DNA from: a virus
Taxonomy: Duplodnaviria > Heunggongvirae > Uroviricota > Caudoviricetes
IMG/VR virus record: IMGVR_UViG_2529292726_000019
DNA length: 46,731 nucleotides
Strand: one strand, 5' to 3'
The notes under the pieces were generated by a model. It searched no databases, was not told where the DNA came from, and saw only the letters and a list, made by a program, of their open reading frames with translations. Position 1 is the first letter of the stretch; every line of letters starts with the position of its first letter. The position numbers and the translations under genes were made by a program. Shown piece by piece: positions 1 through 46,361 of this stretch.

Positions 1-204
1 TGTTGGTGTCAGAGCCGGCCTCTCTTTCAACAGAGGAACAAGCATGCTGTCCCACACAGCTTCCAGAGGATCTTTGCGTGTGCGCCAGTGCCGAACACTG
101 TTTTTTGCCCACTCTCCTTTTTCGATCCGACGACCAGAACGGACTGAGATACCAGCCTTCATGGCCGAGATATGCTGAGTTATACCTTTCTTACGCTGAG
201 TCAT
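1..204 (-). CDS. istA: IstA-like transposase, N-terminal fragment (ORF runs off the window start)
   Basis: Minus-strand ORF with ATG at 204-202 translating MTQRKKGITQHISAMKAGISVRSGRRIEKGEW..., an HTH-like N-terminus. Assignment rests mainly on the adjacent IS21-like terminal repeat. Confidence 0.35.
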   Translation of the reverse strand, partial: MTQRKKGITQHISAMKAGISVRSGRRIEKGEWAKNSVRHWRTRKDPLEAVWDSMLVPLLKERPALTPT

Positions 205-338
205 ATAGTAACTGACCTGAGAAGTATTGAGCGTCACGCCATTTCCTGTTGGATCATGTAAATGACACTCAGGTTACAAAACCGGCCAGAATAATCGGCG
301 CCAGGCGGACTGAGTTATTGTCGTCTCATAGAGAGGAT
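1..338 (-). mobile_element. IS21-family insertion sequence, partial left-hand copy: terminal inverted-repeat region (about 205-338) plus 5' end of istA
   Basis: Plus 281-338 is about 70% identical to the reverse complement of plus 46362-46425 (cggccag..ata..ggcgc..cgtct..atag..gga), as expected for the IRL and IRR of one IS type. The right-hand copy carries an IstB-like ORF. Confidence 0.45.
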
Positions 339-679: not shown

Positions 680-976
680 GTGTTTTCCTTAATGCTTAAA
701 CAAGTTGTTTTCTTATTGGTTTTATTGTGATGTGGCATAAAAGGGGAGCAAGCTAAACGTAAAGGTGCAAACTCTCTATTTCGGTCAACGAAATACAAGG
801 GCCATTTGGCCCTTGTCATTAACACTTTGCTTTACGAACTAACGGATAAGCGAAGTAGATCGCCAAACCAATGAGGACGCCATCAGAAATGACAGACATC
901 ATCTTTCCCGTAAAATCCACCAACACCGCCATCACCAGAAGAGCAATGACGATCACAAGCCGGAATCTCTCAAGCA

Positions 977-1402: not shown

Positions 1403-1495
1403 GTGCTTTCCTTTTGTTATTTGTTAAAACAAGTTGTTTTCTAGTTACATGAATTGCTTACGAAAAGACGGTCAATGCATATGCACTAACAACCG

Positions 1496-2239: not shown

Positions 2240-2336
2240 CTTTCTCGTTCCATCCTGGAACTGTGTCTTACCGACACATTGTCATCCTGACGCCGATAAG
2301 ATACATGATTTAAAATGATAGGTAAACACTTACTTA

Positions 2337-9034: not shown

Positions 9035-10165
9035 TCACACCGCCACTGGAACCTTGATCCACGGTAGAGGGGCATAGCCAAGAATAAGAATCTCGTCCCA
9101 TTTGAAATCATCCAGCTCAGACCATTCATTAGGGAATATAACGACCGGATCTGAATGCTCTGGAGCCTGTCGTTGCATTAGCTCACACACACCTTCCATG
9201 TGGTTGTTGTACAAATGCACGTCAAAGCCAAAATGCACAAATGCACCGGCCATGTGACCCGTAATCTTCGCGAGAAAATGAGTGAGAATGCCATAGCCAG
9301 CAATATTGAATGGCATACCAACAAAAGTGTCTACGCTACGCTGTACGAGGCAGGAGTTGAGGATGCGTTTGGGGATTCCAAGTTCATCCAGTTCAGTTTC
9401 AGTAACACTGCCGTCCATCTCCAGATCGTATAGCATCTTGGTGTAGATAGACTCATAACCGAGGCGACTGTGTTGAAGACCAATGTCAGTTGCCATCGTT
9501 AAACGGGTTTCAAAATCCAGTTCACGACTCCACAAAGAGAAGACAAAGTGGCAAGGGGGCAGTTTCATATCCTCAAGCTCGCCTACGTTCCATGCGTTAA
9601 GCATGATGCGACGATCGGTAGGGTTCGTGCGCAGTGTATCGACAATACGCTGTAGCTGATCGATTTCACGGGACAGCACTACGCGATCTTCACTGATACC
9701 CAGGTATCCCTCGACTTTGTACCCGCGTTCACGGAAAGTAGCGATCTTGCTCAGATATTCACTATGGCTCACGATGCGGGTATCTTCCCATCGACGCCAC
9801 TGCTTACCGTAAACCGGCCCCAAATCGCCATTCTCATCGGCCCATGCATCCCAAATCTTAACGCCGTTATCCTTGAGAAATTGGATGTTGCCCGTGCCTT
9901 TCAGATACCACTCAAGTTCGACAAGCAGTGGCTTAAGATTTACCGCCTTTCCAGAAATAAGCGGCACAGTCCCACCAGTAAGCATGTAGTAAGAGGGAAC
10001 GTAGCAGGTGCTTAAAGTACCAGTGCCTGTGCGATCATCAGCCTGCACGCCGCTTTTAAGCACCGTCTCAATAACTTTTGCATACGATGCGTTTGTTCCC
10101 TGACCGTTCGTATGCTCACGATTCAAAAGGAGTGACACAAAAACCTCACAAAGATAAGTAACCAC
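9035..10165 (-). CDS. thyA: thymidylate synthase
   Basis: DDRTGTGTLS, LKPLLVELEWYLKG, GDLGPVYGKQWRRW and catalytic-Cys region MKLPPCHFVFSLW. Confidence 0.85.
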   Translation of the reverse strand: MVTYLCEVFVSLLLNREHTNGQGTNASYAKVIETVLKSGVQADDRTGTGTLSTCYVPSYYMLTGGTVPLISGKAVNLKPLLVELEWYLKGTGNIQFLKDNGVKIWDAWADENGDLGPVYGKQWRRWEDTRIVSHSEYLSKIATFRERGYKVEGYLGISEDRVVLSREIDQLQRIVDTLRTNPTDRRIMLNAWNVGELEDMKLPPCHFVFSLWSRELDFETRLTMATDIGLQHSRLGYESIYTKMLYDLEMDGSVTETELDELGIPKRILNSCLVQRSVDTFVGMPFNIAGYGILTHFLAKITGHMAGAFVHFGFDVHLYNNHMEGVCELMQRQAPEHSDPVVIFPNEWSELDDFKWDEILILGYAPLPWIKVPVAV

Positions 10166-10222
10166 TTATTCATTGCGTGAGTTTACATTTATTGAGAGAA
10201 CAAGACCAGACAGATAAAAAAA

Positions 10223-11256: not shown

Positions 11257-12399
11257 TTACAGGTCTGCAAACTGGCTTAGAGAAGCCTTATCCACGGTAG
11301 AATCGATCTGACCTACCAGATATGTGCTTTGCTCTGCCTCTTGTGGTGCAATTTGCAGTGTGTCGGTTAACAACCACTTGTTCATCCAGACCAGCGGATC
11401 AGTGGTAACTTCTGGAAATAAAGCCTTCAGGCCAAGACGATTCATAGCCAGATTGGTGCGGTATTTTACATAGGTCTTCAGAATATCCGCGTTTAAACCA
11501 ATCATCGAACCGTCTTTGAAGAGATAGTCTGCCCAGTTCATTTCTTGTTCGGCGACTGATTTCATGGTGTCGCAAATGACGTTTTCTTCATCAGCAGCAA
11601 TCTCTTTCCACAATAAACCTTCGCGACCGGTACGCATGAAGCGGATCATGCGTTCAGTTCCTTCGCAATGCAGAGCTTCATCACGGGCAATAAAGCGCAT
11701 AATTTTGGTGTTACCCTCAAGCAACTTCCGTTCACCAAAGGCAAACGTACATGCAAAACTTACGTAGAAACGGATCGCCTCAAGCGCATTAATGGACACC
11801 AACGTGCGGAAAAGCTGACGATGCAAAGGGTATGGCCCCCAGCCATATTCATTTACGTACAGACGCTCAAATTCCTTCTCACCTAACGACTGGCGCTCGC
11901 AGGTCATCCCATAAAGCCTGTCATATTCAGCAGAGATACTGATCGCTCGGTTGATGATTTCTTCATCCGTAACAATACCGTCAAAAACAATGCTCGGATC
12001 GTCCACCATGCCACGAATAATGTGGGTGTAGCTGCGGCTATGGATAGTCTCAGAGAAAGACCACGTTTCAACCCACGTTTCCAGTTCAGGAATAGAGATA
12101 AGCGGCAGCAGCGTTGCATTTGGACTACGTCCCTGAACTGAATCGAGTAACGTTTGATAACGGAGATTGCTCAGAAAAATGTGACGTTCGTGGTCCCGCA
12201 GCTTCGTGTTGAAGTCGATACGATCGCTCGAAATATCAACTTCTTCCGGCCGCCAGAAGAAAGACAATTGACGTTCAATCAACTTTTCAAAATCACGGTA
12301 TTTTTGCTGATCGTAACGTGCCACGTTGACAGATTGTCCGAGGAACATAGGCTCTTTGGTTGCATCATTAGCACCCAAACGGAACGTTGAATATGACAT
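11257..12399 (-). CDS. nrdB: ribonucleotide reductase class Ia beta subunit
   Basis: FFWRPEEVD, diiron/tyrosyl-radical region and overall length; conserved start region upstream. Confidence 0.9.
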
Positions 12400-12481
12400 G
12401 TGTTTTTCCTTTTTCTTTTTTGGTGCGTTTAAACAAGTTGTTATCTTATGTGTTTAAACAAGGCTTACAAATCAAAGAGAA

Positions 12482-12500
12482 GGTGGGGATATCCCCCACC
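12482..12500 (-). terminator. hairpin ggtggggatatcccccacc downstream of nrdA
   Basis: Perfect stem followed by a T-rich run on the minus strand. Confidence 0.45.
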
Positions 12501-12505
12501 ATATG

Positions 12506-14821
12506 TCAGATTTTGCAGGCTCCGTCGCACTCATCTTCTGGCTCGACGGCTACAGCTTGCGCCAATGGATTCTGCGGTTCGTCGTCATCACGCTTTCCTG
12601 CACCATCTCTGGTGTTGTGGTAGTAAAGCGTTTTAACTCCCATCTTGTAGGCGAGAAGCAAATCTGACAGTAGCGTCATCATTGGGACTTTATCGCCTTC
12701 AAAGCGAGAAGGGTCATAGTTGGTATTGGCTGAAATAGCCTGGTCAAAGAACTTCTGGATGATCGCCACCTTTGTCAGATAGCCGCGGTTGTCCGGCATA
12801 TCCCACAGGTATTCATACTGTTCCTTCAGTTTTTCAAACTCAGGCACGACCATCTTAACGATGCCGTCCTTAGAAGATTTCACCGACACCGGGCCACGAG
12901 GCGGTTCGATGCCGTTGGTGGAATTAGTGATCTGGCTGGAAGTCTCGCATGGCATTTGTGCCGTCAGTGTGGAGTTGCGAAGGCCGTATTTTGCAATACG
13001 TTCACGCAGTTCTTCCCACGGCATCTTTAACTCAAAGTTGGTTTCGCCACTTTCGTCTAATGAAGAACGGTAATGGTCGATCGGCAACTGACCAATTGCG
13101 TACTTGGTCTGCTCAAACCAGTCACACTCACCTTTTGCTTCAGCAAGTCGGCAGCTGGCATCAAGAAGGTAATACTGGATAGCTTCGAATGTTTCATGCA
13201 CCAGTTTATTGCCAGCGGTATCAGAATAACGAACGCCATTCTTTGCCAGGTAATAAGCAAAGTTGGTTACACCAATTCCCAAGCTACGACGAGCTTTGGC
13301 AGGCACTTCGGCTGCCTCCATCGGATAGTCTTGATAATCCAGTAACGAATCCAGTGCAGCAACGGCATAGAACGCCACCTCTTTAAGAGACTCCAGTGAA
13401 CGGATGGCTCCGAGGTTAAAAGCGGATAAAGTGCATAGCGCGATCTCACCGTTCGGGTCGTCGGTAAATGCCAGTGGACGGGTGGGTAGGGTGATCTCCA
13501 TACACAGGTTTGACTGGCGGACAGGTGCAAGAGCAGGAATGAAAGCGCCATGCTCATTAATATGATCGACGTTCGCAATATAAATTCGGCCCGTGGACGC
13601 TCGTTCCTGCATCAGAGATGAGAACAGCTCAATGGCAGGTACTGACTTCTTGCGAATTGAATCATCGGCTTCGTATTTATGGTACAGCTTTTCAAACAGC
13701 TCCTGGTCTGTGAAGAAGGCTTCGTACATATCAGGCACATCATGCGGGCTGAACAGAGTGATGTTCTCGCTTCTGACGAGTCGACGGTACATTAGACGGT
13801 TACTCATGACGCCGTAATCAAGATGGCGAACGCGGTTTTCATCAATACCACGGTTATTTTTCACCACCAGCAGACTTTCAACTTCAAGATGCCAGATCGG
13901 GTAAAACGCTGTTGCTGCGCCACCACGAACACCACCTTGCGAACAAGATTTAACAGCCGTCTGGAAATGCTTCAGGAATGGAATAACTCCGGTATGGGTG
14001 GCTTCACCATTGCGGATCTCGCTGCCCAGCGCACGGATACGGCCAAAACCAATACCAATTCCAGCACGACGTGAAACGTAGTCGATAATTGCGGCTGAAG
14101 CTGCACTAATCCCTTTCAGACTATCGCCAGACTCAATCAGCACACAACTGGAGAACTGACGGGTTGGAGTACGGACGCCGGCCATGATTGGTGTGGGCAG
14201 AGACAGTTTGAACGTACTTGTAACGTCATAGAAACCTTTGACCATCTCCATACGTGTTTTGCCAGCGCAGTCGTCTTCCCAATTCTGGAACAGACACATG
14301 CCTACCAGCATATAGATATGTTGCGGCCCCTCATGAATCTCACCAGTAACACGGTTTTGAACGAGGTATTTGCTTTGCAACTGCACCGTAGCTGCATAGC
14401 CAAAAAGATCGTCACGTTTCGGCTTAATGTAATTGCCGAGTTCTTCGATCTCTTCAAACGAATAATGAGTCAGCAAATCCTTGTCATAAACGCCCTTGTT
14501 AACGTTCTTGACAATGTGTTGGTAGAAGTTCGGATAGTCGTAACGACCGAAGGCATCTTTGCGGATTTTAAAAATGTTCAGGCGGGCAGCCACCTGTGAG
14601 TAATTTGGTGCTTCTGGTGAGATCAAATCAGCGGCAGATTTAACCAAAGCCTCATGCAACTGGCTGGTGGTCATCCCATCAAAAATGCTGGCCGCAGCTC
14701 CCATTGCTACAGCGGATGCGCTTACACCACGAATGCCTTCTACGCCATACATTACGACGCGGTTGTATTTTTCTTCGGATAACGGCTCTGTTTGGCCGTT
14801 ACGTTTTACGATGCTTATCAT
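12506..14821 (-). CDS. nrdA: ribonucleotide reductase class Ia alpha subunit
   Basis: 771 aa with ATP-cone N-terminus and catalytic-site region (NLCMEI, C-terminal redox Cys pair CDGACKI). Confidence 0.9.
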   Translation of the reverse strand: MISIVKRNGQTEPLSEEKYNRVVMYGVEGIRGVSASAVAMGAAASIFDGMTTSQLHEALVKSAADLISPEAPNYSQVAARLNIFKIRKDAFGRYDYPNFYQHIVKNVNKGVYDKDLLTHYSFEEIEELGNYIKPKRDDLFGYAATVQLQSKYLVQNRVTGEIHEGPQHIYMLVGMCLFQNWEDDCAGKTRMEMVKGFYDVTSTFKLSLPTPIMAGVRTPTRQFSSCVLIESGDSLKGISAASAAIIDYVSRRAGIGIGFGRIRALGSEIRNGEATHTGVIPFLKHFQTAVKSCSQGGVRGGAATAFYPIWHLEVESLLVVKNNRGIDENRVRHLDYGVMSNRLMYRRLVRSENITLFSPHDVPDMYEAFFTDQELFEKLYHKYEADDSIRKKSVPAIELFSSLMQERASTGRIYIANVDHINEHGAFIPALAPVRQSNLCMEITLPTRPLAFTDDPNGEIALCTLSAFNLGAIRSLESLKEVAFYAVAALDSLLDYQDYPMEAAEVPAKARRSLGIGVTNFAYYLAKNGVRYSDTAGNKLVHETFEAIQYYLLDASCRLAEAKGECDWFEQTKYAIGQLPIDHYRSSLDESGETNFELKMPWEELRERIAKYGLRNSTLTAQMPCETSSQITNSTNGIEPPRGPVSVKSSKDGIVKMVVPEFEKLKEQYEYLWDMPDNRGYLTKVAIIQKFFDQAISANTNYDPSRFEGDKVPMMTLLSDLLLAYKMGVKTLYYHNTRDGAGKRDDDEPQNPLAQAVAVEPEDECDGACKI

Positions 14822-14860: not shown

Positions 14861-14894
14861 ATGTTAATAGATAAGCACTTACCTATCAATGAAA

Positions 14895-18352: not shown

Positions 18353-19438
18353 TCACACAGCCTCCGAACTCTCCGCTTCGGTGAGGATTTCCTGACACAA
18401 AATATCCAACTTGCTCAGATCAAATCCGCCGTCAGTATCGTGGACAATCTTGCAATAAGCAGATACCGACTCTCCCAGGCTATCGATTTTGCTGGTTTCC
18501 GTTGTGCTTGCTGTCCCTTCCATCATTGATGACTTACGGATGAAGTTGCACACGACACCTTTTGCACCCATTGTTTTGAGGATGTTCTGGTACTTAATGC
18601 CTTCTTCATCGTTCTCAATTACGGCGCGGAAACGCACGTAGTTGCCGCGAATTTGGTCATCGGCAACATAATCTTCCAGGTTAATGAATTTAGGCGCACT
18701 GGTTTCGTAGTGACTGAAACTGCCGTCCGGGTTTACGATCATGTAACCAGCCAGAGATCCAACATCTCCCCAATTTTGATGGGTCAGCGCACCGACACTG
18801 ATAACTCCAGGAATGACCTCTTTGTGGTTGTGGTAATGCCCACTAAGCACGAGACGAAAGCCGATATCCTTTAACTCCTGCGCATCGATACCGACGTCAG
18901 GCATTGTTGGAATGGCTTTGTTAATGGATGTATGGATAACAACGTCATGATTATCACCTTCTACGCTCTTACGTAATGCTTTCAGATCGCTGATAAGCTC
19001 TGCATGATTGTTACGCCAGCTAATCAGGTGGACAGTCACATCACCAATTTTTATTGAGTGTGGGCGTTTGCCACATACGATTACCACGCCGATAGAACTC
19101 AGCGATGCTGCTGCGTTGGCGCTATATACTGAATCGTTGGTTTCAAGATCGTGATTACCGGCCAGCATTACTACTGTCAGATCAAGCTCGTTGATAATCC
19201 ACTTGTACGTTTCAGTTACGTAATGCAAAACAGAAGGGGACACAGTTCCTCGGACGTGAAATGTATCACCGGCAACCAACATGTACTTACAACCGGCCTT
19301 CTTCATGGCGATGGCTGCTTCTTTCGTTGCTTCCAACTGTATTTCAAGTCTGGAGTTAAGCCCCTCTGCGTTCGTCGTGGAGAACGCATCCCATTTGTGG
19401 TAGTGGCAGTCAGAAATGACGCCGTATGGCAAAGTCAT
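18353..19438 (-). CDS. sbcD: SbcD/Mre11-like nuclease
   Basis: Calcineurin-like phosphoesterase motifs GDTFH, GNHD, GHYH; conserved start region upstream. Confidence 0.8.
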   Translation of the reverse strand: MTLPYGVISDCHYHKWDAFSTTNAEGLNSRLEIQLEATKEAAIAMKKAGCKYMLVAGDTFHVRGTVSPSVLHYVTETYKWIINELDLTVVMLAGNHDLETNDSVYSANAAASLSSIGVVIVCGKRPHSIKIGDVTVHLISWRNNHAELISDLKALRKSVEGDNHDVVIHTSINKAIPTMPDVGIDAQELKDIGFRLVLSGHYHNHKEVIPGVISVGALTHQNWGDVGSLAGYMIVNPDGSFSHYETSAPKFINLEDYVADDQIRGNYVRFRAVIENDEEGIKYQNILKTMGAKGVVCNFIRKSSMMEGTASTTETSKIDSLGESVSAYCKIVHDTDGGFDLSKLDILCQEILTEAESSEAV

Positions 19439-19692
19439 GTGTTTTTCCTTTGTGGTTATTTTGATACAAATTTTAAGAGCAATGAGAAGGTAAACAACTA
19501 TGCATAACGGTATGTTAGGAATGAAACGAGCGTCTTAATATACAAAATTTATAAGTAAGTATATACCTATTTGTTGTGACGCAACTTTGCTTGTCTGTAT
19601 AACTAAAAATAAGACAGGATCACTGTAGAACGCTATGAGAGCTATTTTGAGGAGGCGTAGATTCTATCTACGCCAATATACGATCTGGAGGG

Positions 19693-23095: not shown

Positions 23096-23371
23096 TCACT
23101 CAAAAGTGCTGATGCTTAAAATACGCTCAAGATGTTCAGCATCTTCATTACTGATTTGTTGAGTCTCTTCTACGTACCAACAGTTGCCGTTATGCCAACA
23201 AACACCATCATCATCAACCATCACTGAATCAGCGTCATGACCTGTATATTCAACAAGAGTACGCTGGATCAGCGCGTCAGTTTCTTCATCGTTAAGGCCA
23301 TCGACTTTGACCATAAAAAGCGGAAACACGTCATAGACAGTGCTGGTAACGATTCGAACTAAAACTCTCAT
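23096..23371 (-). CDS. hypothetical acidic protein (91 aa)
   Basis: ORF with conserved start region. Confidence 0.45.
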   Translation of the reverse strand: MRVLVRIVTSTVYDVFPLFMVKVDGLNDEETDALIQRTLVEYTGHDADSVMVDDDGVCWHNGNCWYVEETQQISNEDAEHLERILSISTFE

Positions 23372-23426
23372 GTGTTTTTCCTTTTGTGGTTAGTGTTTAC
23401 TTATTTTGTTAGTTATGAATAGGCGA

Positions 23427-23852: not shown

Positions 23853-23906
23853 GTTTTCTTATCCTTTTAAACAAATTGTTTTCTTAATAAGATAATTGCG
23901 ATAAAA

Positions 23907-23928
23907 AAGGCGTCCAACTGGACGCCTG
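23907..23928 (-). terminator. rho-independent terminator aaggcgtcc-aact-ggacgcctt
   Basis: Hairpin followed by a T-run on the minus strand after the SPFH gene. Confidence 0.5.
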
Positions 23929-24978: not shown

Positions 24979-25045
24979 GTGTTTTCCTATGTGGTTGTTA
25001 TGCGAAAATAATAAGTAAGCACTTATATATTTTCAAGAGATAAAA

Positions 25046-25070: not shown

Positions 25071-26144
25071 TTACTCTTCTACTGACTCGGTTGGGTTGTC
25101 TTTTGCTCTTCGGTCGTCGATTGCCTGCAAAGCCGCAATGATTTCAGCCAGTGGCTTCTCCCGATACATCTCGACGATCTGCGATTTGGTGTATTTCTTG
25201 TCACCAATTTCAACTCGCCCGCTGGCGTTCTTTGGCAGGTATCCTTCTTCCAGCATGTACTCGACGAGCGATTCGATAACGTCGAGGCCACGAGTAGGAT
25301 CGAAGTAGAATTTCCAGGTGCATTTGCCATACGGTGGTGCAACTTTGTTTTTGATGCATTCTGCGCCTACGTCCTGGCCGATCTTCTCTTTACCATCCTT
25401 CATCACCGATGCACCAAGACGGATACGTACAGAAGCGTAGAACTTCGGTGAATCTCCACCTGGCGACGTAGTAGGGTCGCCAAACATTACACCGATTTTT
25501 GTGCGAACCTGATTCAAGAAGATGATGCAGGCGTTGTATTTGCGTGCCCACAAAGCCAGAGTAGGGAAGTTCGCACTTGTCGCACGAGCCAGTGCCGTAT
25601 TGTCGTTCATGTTCAGCTGATCTTTGTCTTTGGCAGTGCCTTCAGCCATCTTTTCGAACTTCTCGGCTTTGGAGTTCGGAACCATAGACGCAAGTGAGTC
25701 AGCCACGATACAGATAGGTGCTGATTCAGGAATAAGCTCTTCATCACGTACCAATTTAAGAATTGTGCCGATCAACTCTACAGAGTCTTCGAAGGTATCA
25801 GGCTGCTTGTATACCCACTGACCGTCATCCTCATCTGCGTTCAGGCCATTGGCTACAGCCAGGCCAACGTCAAAACTGTTTTCATGATCGAGGAATACCG
25901 CCAGACCATCTTGTTTTTGAGCGGAGATCATCGCTGCTGTTGCAAGGAACGTTTTCCCTGCACTTGGAGGACCGAATACTTCGACGATACGACCACATGG
26001 GAAGCCGCCATCGTAACGACCAGAAATAGCTTTGTTTAACGGTGGAAAGCCTGTATCAATCCAATGAGTTACTTTCTGAATTTCGTCGTTGCTACCGATT
26101 TTCTTTTTCAGAGCAAGTGCCAGTGCGGATTTTCCTTTTGCCAT
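25071..26144 (-). CDS. recA: RecA-like recombinase
   Basis: GGFPCGRIVEVFGPPSAGKTFLA Walker A region and RecA-like core. Confidence 0.85.
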   Translation of the reverse strand: MAKGKSALALALKKKIGSNDEIQKVTHWIDTGFPPLNKAISGRYDGGFPCGRIVEVFGPPSAGKTFLATAAMISAQKQDGLAVFLDHENSFDVGLAVANGLNADEDDGQWVYKQPDTFEDSVELIGTILKLVRDEELIPESAPICIVADSLASMVPNSKAEKFEKMAEGTAKDKDQLNMNDNTALARATSANFPTLALWARKYNACIIFLNQVRTKIGVMFGDPTTSPGGDSPKFYASVRIRLGASVMKDGKEKIGQDVGAECIKNKVAPPYGKCTWKFYFDPTRGLDVIESLVEYMLEEGYLPKNASGRVEIGDKKYTKSQIVEMYREKPLAEIIAALQAIDDRRAKDNPTESVEE

Positions 26145-38561: not shown

Positions 38562-39116
38562 ATGCACTTGCATAAGTTGGTTACACCTGGTTTGGCTTCA
38601 TTGCCGGGTGATCTGTCATATTTAGATATAGACTTTGTTTTCTCTGGCAATGAAGCTCGTAAGGCTAGATACCGTTTAGTCTTTTGCCCTCCTTCTTTAG
38701 ATCCTGTTGCCGCAGAAACTATGCATAATATGTTAGGGGCTGATGTTTATGGGTTGTGTGTATCTGTCGTTAGTTTTGTGGACATGATTCAACTTGACAG
38801 GCAGCAAGAACAGCTCCAGAATGTCGCTCTTGGAGCGGAAGAGCCAATTAACGTATTTGCCAAACCCGAAGGGTCTTTTAATCTTACTTTAGGTGAACTT
38901 CAATACCTTTACGGTACTTTAGTTGACTTAATGCTCAAAGTTGCCGACAATGAAGGCATACAGATTTTATTCTTTGCGGCAGAACGCGAAGAACTGATGG
39001 CCACATACAAGAGATATGTGAAGAGATTTACACAAGAGCGTGGCCTAACTTATTTAAATGACGGAGCTTCCTATGCGATACGAACACAACACTACCCAAA
39101 ACAAAGGGAAGATTGA
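38562..39116 (+). CDS. hypothetical protein (184 aa)
   Basis: Plus-strand ORF followed by a terminator. Confidence 0.45.
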   Translation: MHLHKLVTPGLASLPGDLSYLDIDFVFSGNEARKARYRLVFCPPSLDPVAAETMHNMLGADVYGLCVSVVSFVDMIQLDRQQEQLQNVALGAEEPINVFAKPEGSFNLTLGELQYLYGTLVDLMLKVADNEGIQILFFAAEREELMATYKRYVKRFTQERGLTYLNDGASYAIRTQHYPKQRED

Positions 39117-39300: not shown

Positions 39301-39546
39301 TTATAAGAAACTTACGAAAGATGCCATCTCTGTGTATCCGCCAATCGGCTGGCCATCGATCAGCACCTGGGGGATAGTCTCTACCGGTTTACCAACAATT
39401 TCACTAAGTTTTTCCTTGTCGATACCGGCAGTGGTGATGTCGATGTACTCATAATCACCGTAGCCATGTCCCTTTAGTTGCTTCGCCAGCTCGACTGCAC
39501 GTTTGCAGTATGAGCAGTTATCTCGTCCGTAGATAGTGATCGTCAT
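39301..39546 (-). CDS. glutaredoxin-like protein
   Basis: CSYC active-site motif near the N-terminus in a thioredoxin-fold-sized ORF (81 aa). Confidence 0.7.
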   Translation of the reverse strand: MTITIYGRDNCSYCKRAVELAKQLKGHGYGDYEYIDITTAGIDKEKLSEIVGKPVETIPQVLIDGQPIGGYTEMASFVSFL

Positions 39547-39893
39547 TGCTTTGCCTCATGCCACTTTTGCTTCAGGAGATAGCCTTCCAGGGGCCAGATT
39601 TGATCGATAGCATCTTTTCGAGCGTACTCGCGACCAACATCAAAGTTGAAGATTTCTGGTCTTACGCACGCAGATTTTCCCGTTACGGTATATCCATTTT
39701 TGAGAACCATAACGCAGAACGTTAAGAGTTTTAACGACTCATGACCTTTGTCGATATCTGTTTTTGAATTGTAAACAGAGATGAAGTTATCCCCGTGGCT
39801 GGCATCATATGCAGTGAAATAATGTTCACTTTGAATGAGTTGTTCAATGTGTTCAGGGGTGACTTTTAGTGGTGTGTTCTCTTTGCTGGTCAT
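39543..39893 (-). CDS. hypothetical protein (116 aa)
   Basis: ORF stop/start coupled to the glutaredoxin gene. Confidence 0.45.
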   Translation of the reverse strand: MTSKENTPLKVTPEHIEQLIQSEHYFTAYDASHGDNFISVYNSKTDIDKGHESLKLLTFCVMVLKNGYTVTGKSACVRPEIFNFDVGREYARKDAIDQIWPLEGYLLKQKWHEAKQ

Positions 39894-40115: not shown

Positions 40116-40202
40116 TGGCGGAGAGTAATGGAATCGAACCATCATCGCTTGCGCAATGGGACGGTTTTCAAGACCGCTTGAGCACCATGCTCCCTACTCT
40201 CC
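40116..40202 (-). tRNA. tRNA-Ser (anticodon TGA), class II with long variable arm
   Basis: Acceptor GGAGAGT/ACTCTCC, anticodon loop CTTGAAA, T-loop TTCGATT, encoded CCA. Confidence 0.7.
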
Positions 40203-40346
40203 GGCCGTTGTGGTGGCCGGGACTGAATCTCCGGCATACGGTGCAGCCAATTAGGACTACGGACGATCACCGCTCGCGAAAGGGAAGATTTGCGGCCGCA
40301 TTTCCCTAACATCCAAGAAAGCTATCGCATCAGTCTGCGAATCCAC

Positions 40347-40425
40347 CACAACGGTAAGATCACTACCTTTCGACCAGTCATTGTGCACATGAACGACGAT
40401 TAACCGTAATGATCTTATCGTTGTG
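40347..40425 (-). ncRNA. structured hairpin element 1 (stem cacaacggtaagatca / tgatcttatcgttgtg)
   Basis: About 79-nt imperfect hairpin; paralogous to element 2 and sharing the 3' flank gttgtgttg. Confidence 0.3.
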
Positions 40426-40476
40426 TTGTGAAGCCAGATGCTTATCTTCTGGTTGCCTCAAAGAGCTGCACTTCCT

Positions 40477-40565
40477 CACAACGGTAAGAGCACTGGTCTG
40501 ACTCTATCGATTTACGGGCTTGTGGGTCAGTATCGCCGATTCGCCCAATGCACTTACCTGTTGTG
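40477..40565 (-). ncRNA. structured hairpin element 2 (stem cacaacggtaag / cttacctgttgtg) abutting the 3' end of tRNA-Thr
   Basis: About 89-nt imperfect hairpin; does not fold as a tRNA by eye. Confidence 0.3.
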
Positions 40566-40566
40566 T

Positions 40567-40643
40567 TGGTGCCGGTTAACGGACTCGAACCGCTGACATC
40601 CTGCTTACAAGGCAGGCGCTCTACCAACTGAGCTAAACCGGCA
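40567..40643 (-). tRNA. tRNA-Thr (anticodon TGT)
   Basis: Reverse complement TGCCGGTTTAGCTCAGTTGGTAGAGCGCCTGCCTTGTAAGCAGGATGTCAGCGGTTCGAGTCCGTTAACCGGCACCA folds as a cloverleaf. Confidence 0.8.
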
Positions 40644-40646
40644 ATT

Positions 40647-40733
40647 TGGTGGGGAGTGATGGAGTCGAACCACCCGAGTCGCCATGACAGTAGATTTACA
40701 GTCTACCCCGCTGCCCCTACGGACTAACTCCCC
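40647..40733 (-). tRNA. tRNA-Tyr (anticodon GTA), long variable arm
   Basis: Acceptor GGGGAGT/ACTCCCC, anticodon stem-loop GTAGA-CTGTAAA-TCTAC, T-loop TTCGACT, CCA encoded. Confidence 0.8.
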
Positions 40734-40738
40734 TAAAT

Positions 40739-40813
40739 TGGCGATGGTGGGTGGATTCGAACCACCGACCAGTTGGTTAACAGCCAACTGCTCTACCGCT
40801 GAGCTACACCATC
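40739..40813 (-). tRNA. tRNA-Asn (anticodon GTT)
   Basis: Reverse complement GATGGTGTAGCTCAGCGGTAGAGCAGTTGGCTGTTAACCAACTGGTCGGTGGTTCGAATCCACCCACCATCGCCA. Confidence 0.8.
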
Positions 40814-41591
40814 AATTCAGCACTGCCAGTATTTATTACTCAACAGTGCCAATCGCGACGGTTTAGTTTCTGCCAGGAAACGCACCGCTACTTGCACTTT
40901 TCGTTAGTGCCAGACGCTTTCGACTTCGCTCAATAGTAGAAGGCAAAATCTTTAAGTAGATGATGTTTCTGAGGACAGCACCTACTTTGTAATTTATACA
41001 ATGTGATGTATGGAATCATTTGTTGTGAAAACAGGCACCAATGGCAACAGTGGTTAAACCTACACAACAATCCTGTCTTCACAACGTTGAGGCCACTACT
41101 CCGATTGAATGTTTGCCCAACATGTTACATATCAACGCTCGCCGGTATCTCTGTGAATAGAACCTTAGAATTGATAAAAATGTAATGGCCTCAACGTTAT
41201 GTGCTGGCTAACCATACCAGCCGGGCTACGTCGCCGCTTTTTAACCCAGTATAAACGACATAATTGAACAAAATGACGTAACAGGATGGGCGGTCAGTGG
41301 CTAAGAATCCGGGAGTCATATGGAGTTGAAAATATACCAACCGCCCATTCTGTTACTTCATCGGAGGGAACATGAATGTTCCCTCCTGCGTTCTGCAATC
41401 ACACTCGCTCAGTGTGTCCCATTTCGGTAACGAGGCTGGAAACTGACCTCGCTGGTGTTTGGCTTATTAGGCTACTGCCAGATAGACTTCTTCGTTTGCA
41501 CTTGTATTTAAGTTCAAACAGTCGCGTCTCAACGAAAACAAAGTCATCTTATACACAAAAGATAAGTAAGTAAATACTTATCAATATGTTT

Positions 41592-46299: not shown

Positions 46300-46361
46300 G
46301 TGTTTTTCTTTTGTGGTTTGGCAAAAGAAAAGTTGTTTCACCAATGAATCAAGCGTGGAGG

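What the first reader, a model, noticed from the sequence alone, without database searches (positions are those of the whole stretch)
696..712. Second recurring upstream palindrome TTAAACAAGTTGTTTTC
A near-perfect palindrome occurs 17-45 nt upstream of start codons at 696-712, 1424-1441, 12428-12445 and 23867-23884, with partial copies at 36261-36281 and 46328-46339. It always sits just upstream of the conserved start region, so it is a candidate promoter element or regulator-binding site for a distinct temporal gene class.
Basis: seen in the sequence. Interest (0 to 1): 0.45.

Follow-up and report, generated by a model that had tools for sequence, protein, structure and literature searches.

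The report
Dispersed repressor operator of SSU5-like phage-plasmids
The repeated palindrome is real and is most likely the DNA docking site of a still-unidentified repressor that switches off about twenty separate promoters in a widespread family of E. coli, Salmonella, Klebsiella and Yersinia phage-plasmids.

Summary
The window is 100% identical to E. coli plasmid CP025888.1, an SSU5/Cyrano-type phage-plasmid, and its genes lie on the minus strand. On the coding strand the motif reads GAAAACAAnTTGTTTAA. Four strong copies and one degenerate copy are real: 5 matches against 0.26 expected, and 21.9-31.7 bits with a matrix trained on other genomes against 18.5 for the best random hit. The sixth copy (46328-46339) is not supported.

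Each copy lies between an intrinsic terminator and the ribosome-binding site of the next gene. Relatives (Cyrano, SSU5, a Klebsiella phage, Y. pestis pMT1, two divergent Klebsiella and metagenomic groups) carry about 18-20 copies per complete genome at matching promoters. In about half of these, a -10 hexamer, often with TGn, ends 9-12 nt (mostly 11) upstream.

Some promoters carry a second, inverted copy exactly 51 bp upstream. The RNA hairpin is negligible and arm changes are never compensated. Downstream genes are silent in published lysogen RNA-seq.

Best reading: a two-fold symmetric DNA operator for a family-encoded repressor. The repressor is unidentified; the leading candidate is the conserved ParA partner protein.

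It is analogous to P1 C1 or IncP KorA/KorB regulons but not homologous to them. The "separate temporal class" idea is doubtful, because nrdA/nrdB and cobS/cobT are split between this operator and a second one.

The parts
696..712 (-). Operator copy A, GAAAACAACTTGTTTAA. It ends 16 nt before the ATG (679) of a CYRAN_87-like gene that is cut short by an IS at about position 330.
   Evidence: Exact match; 31.7 bits with the independent matrix; conserved at the matching promoter in Cyrano, SSU5 and Klebsiella phi12.3.
724..751 (-). Putative sigma-70 promoter for copy A: -35 TTGCTC (751-746), 16-nt spacer, -10 CACAAT (729-724). The -10 ends 11 nt before the operator, so the operator would cover about +5 to +21.
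   Evidence: The same 11-nt offset is seen in 18 family sites. Inferred; no transcription start has been mapped.
795..816 (-). Intrinsic terminator-like hairpin that closes the upstream unit ahead of copy A.
   Evidence: 9-bp stem with 6 G-C pairs.
1425..1441 (-). Operator copy B, GAAAACAACTTGTTTTA (7-bp arms). It ends 22 nt before the ATG (1402) of the TciA/TerB-like gene; a -10-like TAGAAA overlaps its first bases.
   Evidence: 25.7 bits; TerB domain; only the motif and the ribosome-binding site are conserved against the Klebsiella relative. The TAGAAA overlap is read directly from the sequence.
12429..12445 (-). Operator copy C, GATAACAACTTGTTTAA. It ends 29 nt before the nrdB ATG (12399); a -10-like TAAGAT (12448-12443) overlaps its first 3 nt.
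   Evidence: (26.3 bits), and the three-genome footprint.
12482..12500 (-). Intrinsic terminator between nrdA and nrdB, so nrdB needs its own promoter.
   Evidence: 8-bp stem, 6 G-C pairs, T-rich tail; stem conserved in SSU5 and the Klebsiella relative.
23867..23883 (-). Operator copy D, GAAAACAATTTGTTTAA. It ends 14 nt before the ATG (23852) of a DUF7238 protein gene.
   Evidence: 29.9 bits; DUF7238, for the Cyrano homologue; matching copies in Cyrano, SSU5, pMT1 and Klebsiella.
23908..23927 (-). Intrinsic terminator 24 nt upstream of copy D. Its descending stem supplies the TTGGAC -35-like hexamer used in relatives.
   Evidence: 8-bp stem, 6 G-C pairs, TTTTTT tail.
36265..36281 (-). Degenerate operator copy E, GTAAATAATTTGTTTTC in gene orientation (it scores better on the + strand). 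It ends 17 nt before the cobT ATG (36247), with a -10-like TACATT 10 nt upstream.
   Evidence: 3 mismatches; 21.9 bits. It matches perfect or near-perfect operators upstream of cobT in SSU5 (42727) and pMT1 (89257).
46328..46339 (-). Reported 'partial copy' upstream of the primase gene. Rejected as a site.
   Evidence: Not among the listed matrix hits, so below 8.1 bits; the matching SSU5 sequence GAGAAAAACTTCCTTTT is not palindromic.

Best explanation
The motif is a DNA operator. It is a 13-bp two-fold symmetric core (AAACAA-N-TTGTTT) inside a conserved 17-mer, bound by a dimeric or tetrameric repressor encoded by SSU5-type phage-plasmids.

Each copy lies just downstream of, or overlapping, the -10/start region of a host sigma-70 promoter that restarts transcription after an intrinsic terminator. 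Bound protein would block open-complex formation or promoter escape, much as lac O1 does at +11. At some promoters a second inverted copy 51 bp upstream also covers the -35 region.

About 18-20 such promoter-operator units per complete genome keep replication, nucleotide-metabolism, accessory 'early', packaging-leader and parA transcription units off, or throttled, in the plasmid-prophage state.

Shown here: the sites, their conservation, their geometry relative to -10 elements, and the silence of the downstream genes in lysogens. Inferred: the transcription start positions, repression itself, and the identity of the binder.

The leading candidate binder, at roughly one chance in three, is the conserved 119-aa partner of the small ParA ATPase (CYRAN_29/SSU5_034). 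Its own operon promoter carries the motif.
For: 1. Non-random and specific. There are 5 window sites against 0.26 expected. An independent matrix separates them cleanly from random sequence.

2. A family-wide regulon. Above the threshold set by random windows there are 18 sites in Cyrano, and similar numbers at up to 2 mismatches in SSU5 and the Klebsiella phage. pMT1 has 6. Both divergent groups carry the motif at the parA and helicase promoters. Exact-motif hits in IMG/VR are overwhelmingly SSU5-like contigs, many of them multi-copy; unrelated contigs carry one, rarely two, copies.

3. Conserved islands. In alignments of matching intergenic regions the motif and the ribosome-binding site are conserved while the flanks diverge.

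4. Position is tied to the promoter, not the start codon. A -10 hexamer (GATAAT or TATTAT, often preceded by TGn) ends 11 nt upstream in 18 sites and 9-12 nt upstream in 25 of 56. The distance to the ATG varies from 9 to 35 nt, with one outlier at 67.

5. DNA-level symmetry. C6 and G12 are mirror positions and nearly invariant, the central base is free, and single-arm substitutions are never compensated.

6. Strict pair geometry. Close pairs occur only at 51 bp, always inverted, in 12 distinct sequence variants, or at 25 bp in the terS leader. The upstream copies lie outside the transcript.

7. No RNA structure. Predicted hairpins are -0.1 to -1.7 kcal/mol with z-scores near 0, and no Rfam family matches.

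8. Insulated cassettes. Four window copies follow terminator-like hairpins.

9. Silent target genes. In the published LF82(Cyrano) lysogen RNA-seq, genes directly downstream of the motif sit at background (5.7-25 against a median of 9.8). The exception is the parA operon (50-89), as expected for an autoregulated promoter (PMC9928086 S1 Table).

10. Candidate binder. The ParA partner is 91-100% identical in all 11 complete SSU5-like phage records. Its basic arm, the IKSRTMS segment and the TRSDVIRAAI helix are invariant even in homologues about 48% identical overall, and those genomes keep the same operator. It is expressed in the lysogen at 89.
Against: - No transcription start sites are mapped. 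Within the window the -10/-35 assignments are weak for copies B, C and D.
- The fixed 11-nt and 51-bp spacings could partly reflect common descent of a duplicated promoter cassette rather than selection.
- The flanks are asymmetric and the promoter-side arm is somewhat better conserved, with about 3 against 13 deviations by my tally of the counts. A perfectly symmetric dimer would not require this.
- No binder is demonstrated. The ParA partner has no Pfam, NCBIfam or PDB match, and its AlphaFold monomer model is poor (pLDDT 62.6) with no fold match. Any DNA-binding fold for it, such as ribbon-helix-helix, is only my reading of the sequence pattern.
- pMT1 lacks this ParA and its partner yet keeps 6 good sites.
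- Almost all lytic genes are silent in lysogens, so that observation is not specific to this motif.
Confidence: 0.68

Rival explanations
1. RNA-level element. The motif acts in the 5' untranslated region, either as the binding site of a translational repressor or decay factor, or as an A/U-rich translational enhancer next to the ribosome-binding site. One candidate factor is the family's core FljA-like protein, which looks like two tandem Sm/Hfq-like domains.
For: - The motif usually lies between the predicted start site and the ribosome-binding site, in a constant orientation with A-rich flanks.
- The FljA-like gene is present in all 12 SSU5-like phage records. It matches Pfam Flag1_repress at 1e-80 with a weak Hfq-like stretch, and its sequence reads as two Sm-like barrels.
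- From my own knowledge, Salmonella FljA acts on fliC mRNA, and the T7 gene-10 leader (GAAATAATTTTGTTTAAC) resembles the motif.
Against: - Exact mirror symmetry, including C6/G12, has no rationale for a single-stranded RNA site.
- There is no stable hairpin.
- Inverted copies sit upstream of the -35 region, outside the mRNA, at a fixed 51 bp.
- Spacing is fixed to the -10 and variable to the ATG.
- The E. coli fliC leader has no motif-like sequence; the best score is -0.1 bits.
Confidence: 0.12
2. Positive promoter element. The palindrome is recognised by a phage-encoded activator or alternative sigma factor and defines a temporal class of promoters.
For: - Consensus sigma-70 promoters are scarcer than chance in the window: 13 against 29.6 expected and 14 against 20.3.
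- Several window copies lack a convincing -35.
- The target genes are silent in lysogens, which would also follow from a missing activator.
Against: - The site lies downstream of, or on top of, good -10 or extended -10 hexamers, which is a repressor position and not an activator position.
- No sigma factor or RNA polymerase gene is annotated in relatives, and there is no homologue of P1 Lpa.
- nrdA/nrdB and cobS/cobT are split between the two motif classes, which argues against separate timing.
Confidence: 0.08
3. Host-factor site. A conserved Enterobacterales DNA-binding protein recognises the palindrome, and the phage-plasmid exploits it.
For: All known hosts are Enterobacterales. The motif is invariant across elements whose candidate regulators diverge to 50-78% identity.
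Against: - It does not fit any E. coli regulator consensus I know (IHF, Fis, KdgR, PurR, NrdR, LexA and others; from my own knowledge).
- Exact-motif hits in viral contigs are concentrated in SSU5-like elements.
- Host chromosomes could not be scanned with these tools.
Confidence: 0.05
4. Primarily a DNA-handling site rather than a transcriptional one: a dispersed partition centromere bound by the ParA partner, or cosB-like terminase small-subunit sites.
For: - Two copies 25 bp apart lie between the cos-end palindrome and terS, in the position that lambda cosB occupies.
- A copy sits at the parA promoter, and no repeat array typical of a centromere is found near parA.
Against: About 18 of 20 copies are tied to promoters of unrelated genes at a fixed -10 offset, which packaging or partition alone does not explain. 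TerS is not expressed in lysogens (7.1). A centromere role could coexist with repression, as it does for KorB and omega.
Confidence: 0.05

Closest known systems
Phage P1 C1 repressor regulon (17-bp Op operators scattered over a plasmid prophage)
   Same: It has 17-bp operators in many copies across a roughly 100-kb plasmid prophage. Each overlaps or abuts the promoter of a separate operon for replication, recombination, methylation or late-gene control. The P1 record annotates such operators, for example Olpa and Oc1a-e.
   Different: The P1 operator is asymmetric (ATTGCTCTAATAAATTT) and has no match in the window. No homologue of C1, Coi or Lpa exists in the window, Cyrano, SSU5, the Klebsiella phage or pMT1. 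The motif here is two-fold symmetric, so the binder is probably a dimer or tetramer.
Global plasmid regulators that double as partition proteins: IncP KorB/KorA, and omega of inc18 plasmids (own knowledge)
   Same: These use short palindromic operators (the KorB site is a 13-bp palindrome with a free central base) dispersed at promoters for replication, partition and accessory genes. The regulator's own partition operon is among the targets. Here the parA promoter carries the motif and the ParA partner is the best-conserved candidate.
   Different: The operator sequence is unrelated. The candidate here is a small protein with no detectable family or fold match. Binding is untested. The element is a phage-plasmid whose targets are lytic and early genes.
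Lambdoid CI/Cro operators and lac O1
   Same: Lambdoid operators are 17-bp pseudo-palindromes with a central base pair. The terS-leader pair here is 25 bp apart, like lambda OR1-OR2, and the operator is centred near +13, like lac O1 at +11 (own knowledge; geometry).
   Different: The sites are not clustered beside a repressor gene. The divergent region next to the HTH repressor gene in the window (36559-36809) carries the other palindrome and not this one.

Membership tests
P1 C1-controlled operators | Asymmetric 17-bp consensus ATTGCTCTAATAAATTT | tested here: not met
   0 matches at up to 3 mismatches in the window; the motif here is a palindrome.
P1 C1-controlled operators | A C1-family repressor (and Coi/Lpa partners) encoded by the element | tested here: not met
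   tblastn of P1 C1, Coi and Lpa against the window, Cyrano, SSU5, Klebsiella phi12.3 and pMT1 gave no hit better than E = 0.29.
P1 C1-controlled operators | Many operators dispersed over a plasmid prophage, each at the promoter of a separate operon | tested here: met
   18 sites above the random-window threshold in Cyrano, and similar numbers in SSU5 and the Klebsiella phage, all intergenic or at probably mis-called 5' ends.
Partition-protein global regulons (KorB, omega) | Palindromic operator present at the regulator's own partition operon and at many other promoters | tested here: met
   The motif overlaps the predicted start region of the parA promoter in Cyrano, SSU5 and two divergent groups, plus the dispersed sites.
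Partition-protein global regulons (KorB, omega) | The binder is the centromere-binding partner of ParA, with a ParB or ribbon-helix-helix DNA-binding fold | tested here: inconclusive
   The ParA partner is highly conserved and expressed in lysogens. No family, PDB or fold match was found and the model has low confidence. pMT1 lacks the gene but keeps sites.
Sigma-70 promoter with downstream operator | A -10 hexamer (with or without TGn) at a fixed short distance upstream of the site | tested here: met
   The gap is 11 nt in 18 sites and 9-12 nt in 25 of 56, with extended -10 TG in 17 sites. Within the window it is clear only for copy A and plausible for C, D and E.
Sigma-70 promoter with downstream operator | Transcription start mapped upstream of the operator, and repression shown | not testable with these tools
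   Only steady-state lysogen RNA-seq values are available, as a published table.
Structured RNA element (attenuator, 5' stabiliser, known Rfam family) | Stable, conserved stem-loop, compensatory changes, or a covariance-model match | tested here: not met
   Minimum free energies are -0.1 to -1.7 kcal/mol with z-scores from -0.7 to +0.9. No compensatory changes are seen among more than 50 sites. No Rfam hit other than tRNAs.
Lambdoid OR/OL operator cluster | Two or three adjacent operators between divergent repressor and lytic genes | tested here: not met
   The divergent region next to the HTH repressor gene (36559-36809) lacks this motif and carries the other palindrome, GGTAAGTGCTTACC.

The most novel reading that the evidence does not exclude
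The small ParA partner protein of SSU5-type phage-plasmids is both the partition adaptor and a global silencer. It would bind the roughly 20 dispersed 17-bp operators, tying prophage silencing to the plasmid-maintenance machinery.

Together with the immunity repressor acting on the second palindrome, it would form a two-key (AND) lock. In that lock, partner subunits such as nrdA/nrdB and cobS/cobT are each held by a different key.
Probability: 0.2. Interest if true: 0.65.

Novelty: new member of a known kind. Interest (0 to 1): 0.4.

Why it matters
SSU5-type phage-plasmids include S. Typhi pHCM2, much of Y. pestis pMT1, pLF82/Cyrano of adherent-invasive E. coli, and Klebsiella elements named for KPC and OXA-48. 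This 3-kb stretch alone matched about 170 plasmid records over at least 80% of its length, the listed ones all E. coli.

I found no description of their lysis-lysogeny or plasmid-mode control: two full-text searches returned nothing on operators or promoters of this family.

A defined 17-bp operator, about 20 target promoters and a short list of candidate binders turn that gap into direct experiments with reporters, EMSA and ChIP. The promoter-operator cassette (extended -10 plus operator) could also serve as a compact repressible expression module.

The kind of system, a dispersed repressor regulon in a plasmid prophage, is well known from P1 and IncP plasmids. A specialist would find it useful rather than surprising.

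Tried and rejected
- **RNA hairpin or attenuator.** Rejected: the folds are no better than shuffled sequence and there is no Rfam match.
- **The 46328-46339 copy.** Rejected.
- **P1 homology.** No C1, Coi or Lpa homologue and no P1 operator sequence.
- **The HTH 'putative repressor' (window 36810-37196; CYRAN_45) as binder.** Unlikely. Its own regulatory region carries the other palindrome three times and not this one. SSU5 lacks the gene but keeps about 20 sites.
- **The 'LexA-like S24' gene of Cyrano.** It is a UmuD'-like gene with a LexA box, not a repressor.
- **CYRAN_117.** This 92-aa protein is expressed in lysogens, but it is only 52-58% conserved, its putative DNA-reading positions vary, and it has no structural match.
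- **CYRAN_123 and CYRAN_37.** Only sub-threshold winged-helix hints, and the two are not paralogues.
- **FljA-like protein.** The fliC leader of E. coli has no motif, and two literature searches found nothing linking it to these elements.
- **Co-variation test of binder against operator.** Uninformative. Both the operator and the conserved segments of the ParA partner are invariant even in the most divergent relatives found.
- **TerS-anchored scan of species genomes.** It returned only close relatives.
- **Structure prediction and fold search of the ParA partner.** Low confidence and no match.
- **Macrophage RNA-seq columns.** Too noisy to separate the two operator classes.

Full report
**What the window is.** The 46.7-kb window is 100% identical over its first 3 kb to E. 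coli plasmid CP025888.1 (111,957 bp). It is 97-99% identical to the phage-plasmid Cyrano (pLF82 of E. coli LF82) and to CMS-2020a, and about 78% identical to Salmonella phage SSU5 and to Klebsiella relatives. It covers the replication and nucleotide-metabolism arm: primase, ligase, tRNAs, an integrase and HTH repressor module, cobT/cobS, DNA polymerase III alpha, SSB, RecA-like, RepA, SbcCD, nrdAB, thyX and others. Almost all genes are on the minus strand. The motif therefore has to be read as its reverse complement, GAAAACAAnTTGTTTAA.

**Checking the observation.**
- The palindrome is present at the stated coordinates, give or take one base. There are five matches at up to 3 mismatches against 0.26 expected, and none of 100 shuffles reached five.
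- A weight matrix trained only on SSU5, Klebsiella phage ST13-OXA48phi12.3 and Y. pestis pMT1 scores exactly five window sites. They are 694-714 at 31.7 bits, 23865-23885 at 29.9, 12427-12447 at 26.3, 1423-1443 at 25.7 and 36263-36283 at 21.9. The best score in 30 random windows was 18.5.
- The copy claimed at 46328-46339 is below the listed hits (under 8.1 bits) and is not conserved as a palindrome in SSU5. I reject it.
- The motif ends 16, 22, 29, 14 and 17 nt before the ATG of, respectively, a CYRAN_87-like gene, the tciA/TerB-like gene, nrdB, a DUF7238 gene and cobT.

**Anatomy.**
- Among 38 independent sites, positions 3-8 (AAACAA) and 10-15 (TTGTTT) are nearly invariant. C6 and G12 are mirror images and the central base is free.
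- The flanks are asymmetric: G-A on the promoter side and A-A/C/G on the gene side. A fully symmetric form, GAAAACAA-N-TTGTTTTC, does occur, for example at the parA promoter of a divergent relative.
- Single-arm substitutions are common and never compensated.
- As RNA the sequence folds no better than shuffled controls, at -0.1 to -1.7 kcal/mol with z-scores near 0. Nothing in Rfam matches.

**Context in the window.** Four copies follow terminator-like hairpins: 816-795, 1490-1471 (weak), 12500-12482 and 23927-23908. Each copy therefore sits in a terminator, promoter, motif, ribosome-binding site, ATG cassette. The flanks of the five window copies are unrelated to each other. The 17-mer itself is what is conserved, not a duplicated block.

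**Evidence from relatives.**
- Whole-genome scans give 18 sites above the random-window threshold in Cyrano and comparable numbers in SSU5 and the Klebsiella phage. pMT1 has 6.
- The sites lie at matching positions: the terS leader, parA, the helicase gene, cobT, the DUF7238/DUF2591 unit, nrdB, tciA, the CYRAN_87-like gene, a methyltransferase gene, and about ten small genes of an accessory 'early' region.
- Alignments of matching intergenic regions show the motif and the ribosome-binding site as conserved islands in diverged flanks.
- An exact-pattern scan of IMG/VR returned mostly SSU5-like contigs of 90-112 kb, many of them multi-copy. Unrelated contigs carried one, rarely two, copies.
- Two more divergent groups keep the motif at the parA and helicase promoters. 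Their ParA partner proteins are 48-50% and 68% identical to Cyrano's.

**Promoter geometry.**
- In 25 of 56 oriented sites a -10 hexamer ends 9-12 nt upstream of the motif, and in 18 it ends exactly 11 nt upstream. The hexamer is GATAAT, TATTAT or similar. In 17 sites it is preceded by TGn, the extended -10 type that needs no good -35.
- With a start about 7 nt after the -10, the motif would occupy roughly +5 to +21.
- In other units (nrdB, tciA, parA) the -10-like hexamer overlaps the motif's first bases.
- By contrast the distance to the ATG varies from 9 to 35 nt, with one outlier at 67. The element is positioned relative to the promoter, not to the start codon.
- Across all sequence held, close pairs occur at only two spacings. 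One is 51 bp, always in inverted orientation, in 12 distinct sequence variants; the upstream copy then covers the -35 region and lies outside the transcript. The other is 25 bp, in the terS leader next to the cos end.

**Expression.** The published lysogen RNA-seq for LF82 (PMC9928086, S1 Table) has a median Cyrano background of 9.8. Genes directly downstream of the motif read:

| Gene | Value |
|---|---|
| CYRAN_1 | 7.1 |
| CYRAN_32 | 21 |
| CYRAN_47 | 7.8 |
| CYRAN_58 | 5.7 |
| CYRAN_70 | 12.9 |
| CYRAN_85 | 7.0 |
| CYRAN_87 | 7.1 |
| CYRAN_101 | 7.5 |
| CYRAN_105 | 12.8 |
| CYRAN_106 | 12.2 |
| CYRAN_110 | 6.7 |
| CYRAN_111 | 25.5 |

The parA operon reads 50-89. Promoters with extended -10 elements that are nonetheless silent in the lysogen fit repression. 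A partly expressed parA operon fits autoregulation. Almost all lytic genes are silent, however, so this evidence is not specific to the motif.

**Mechanism.** The best-supported reading is a two-fold symmetric DNA operator for a repressor encoded by the phage-plasmid family. It would block initiation or promoter escape at about 20 dispersed sigma-70 promoters. Reinforcement by a second operator over the -35 region, at a spacing of about five helical turns, would apply at some promoters. The sites, their conservation, their geometry and the silence of the targets are shown. The start sites, repression itself and the binder are inferred.

**Who binds.** This is not resolved.
- **HTH repressor of the window (36810-37196; CYRAN_45).** It is flanked by three copies of the other palindrome and none of this one. 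It is absent from SSU5.
- **ParA partner (CYRAN_29/SSU5_034).** This is the best candidate. It is 91-100% identical in all 11 complete SSU5-like phage records. A basic arm, an IKSRTMS segment and a TRSDVIRAAI helix are invariant even at about 48% overall identity. It is expressed in lysogens at 89, and its own operon's promoter carries the motif. Against it, no family, PDB or fold match was obtained and the model is poor. pMT1 lacks the gene while keeping six sites.
- **FljA-like core gene.** It is present in all 12 records and matches Pfam Flag1_repress at 1e-80. It looks like two Sm/Hfq-like barrels and would suit an RNA-level model. The DNA symmetry, the untranscribed inverted copies and the -10-anchored spacing argue against that model. 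The E. coli fliC leader has no motif.

**A second operator class, and why 'temporal class' is doubtful.**
- A different palindrome has the core RTAAGTRCTTAY and the full form ATAGGTAAGTACTTACCTAT. It occurs at 8 or more window positions, giving 13 strand-hits against 1.2 expected.
- It sits inside the 17-nt spacer of canonical promoters, such as TTGATA-17-TAACAT upstream of nrdA.
- It is conserved in SSU5 and the Klebsiella phage but altered in a divergent relative whose copies of the present motif are unchanged. That pattern fits an immunity-specific operator.
- nrdA and cobS carry that palindrome, while their partners nrdB and cobT carry the present motif. Both promoter types must therefore be active together. 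This looks more like a double lock than like two temporal classes.

**Comparison with known systems.** The system works like the dispersed operator regulons of P1 (C1) and of IncP or inc18 plasmids (KorA/KorB, omega). In site geometry it resembles lambdoid operators and lac O1. It is not a member of the P1 system: there is no P1 operator sequence and no C1, Coi or Lpa homologue. Two full-text searches found no description of operators or promoters in SSU5-type elements.

**Verdict.** It is a previously undescribed member of a well-known kind of system, of moderate interest.

Noticed in passing
window 2322-2333, 10158-10169, 14871-14882, 25015-25026, 28535-28546, 34106-34117, 36766-36777, 41570-41581: A second recurring palindrome (core RTAAGTRCTTAY, full form ATAGGTAAGTACTTACCTAT) gives 13 strand-hits against 1.2 expected. 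It sits in the spacer of canonical sigma-70 promoters, for example upstream of nrdA, the SSB gene and cobS. About three full or partial copies lie in the divergent region next to the HTH repressor gene. It is conserved in SSU5 and Klebsiella but altered in a divergent relative (L140), so it is probably the immunity-repressor operator.
   Followed up: partly
window 11257-14821 and 32808-36247: Partner genes are split between the two operator classes. nrdA and cobS have palindrome #1, while nrdB and cobT have the motif studied here, with a terminator between nrdA and nrdB. This suggests a two-key control rather than two temporal classes.
   Followed up: partly
window 1-330: This stretch is the end of an IS21-family element (ISEc10 istA side), 99.7-100% identical to copies on many unrelated plasmids. 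The insertion cuts short the CYRAN_87-like gene (326-679) whose promoter carries the best motif copy.
   Followed up: partly
window 38562-39116 (+): This is the homologue of CYRAN_43, a 184-aa protein with no family match. In the published RNA-seq it is the most highly expressed Cyrano gene in LF82 lysogens, about 720-fold above background. It lies next to the integrase and repressor module that SSU5 lacks.
   Followed up: no
window 40116-40813 (-): A cluster of four tRNA genes (Ser-TGA, Thr-TGT, Tyr-GTA, Asn-GTT). Cyrano's annotation lists Asn, Thr and Ser only.
   Followed up: no
many window start sites, e.g. 12397-12415, 19436-19455, 23369-23388: A strongly conserved ribosome-binding and start context, AAAGGAAAAACACATG, recurs at many genes regardless of which operator class precedes them.
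   Followed up: no
L006 18380-18901 (Cyrano CYRAN_114), outside the window: This FljA-like 'phase-1 flagellin repressor' homologue is present in all 12 SSU5-like phage records. Its sequence reads as two tandem Sm/Hfq-like barrels, which suggests an RNA-binding core regulator of unknown target.
   Followed up: partly
Cyrano about 94540-94620, SSU5 about 90680-90754, Klebsiella phi12.3 about 39532-39600 (outside the window): A motif copy on the opposite strand is followed by a conserved stretch with no annotated gene (…AACGCAACGGGAGCG.TTCTGAGC.TGT…). It could be a small RNA or a regulatory locus.
   Followed up: no
L006 6876-7300 (Cyrano) and the genome ends (L129-L132, about 9810-9860): The gene annotated 'LexA-like S24 peptidase' is a UmuD'-like gene behind a perfect LexA box (TACTGTATGTGTATACAGTA). 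A roughly 40-bp palindrome spans the cos ends just upstream of the two terS-leader operator copies.
   Followed up: no
window 25071-26144 compared with Cyrano CYRAN_55 (2340 bp): The RecA-like recombinase gene is 357 codons here and in SSU5, but 779 codons in Cyrano. Cyrano's copy therefore carries an insertion of about 1.3 kb, which could be an intein or a homing element.
   Followed up: no
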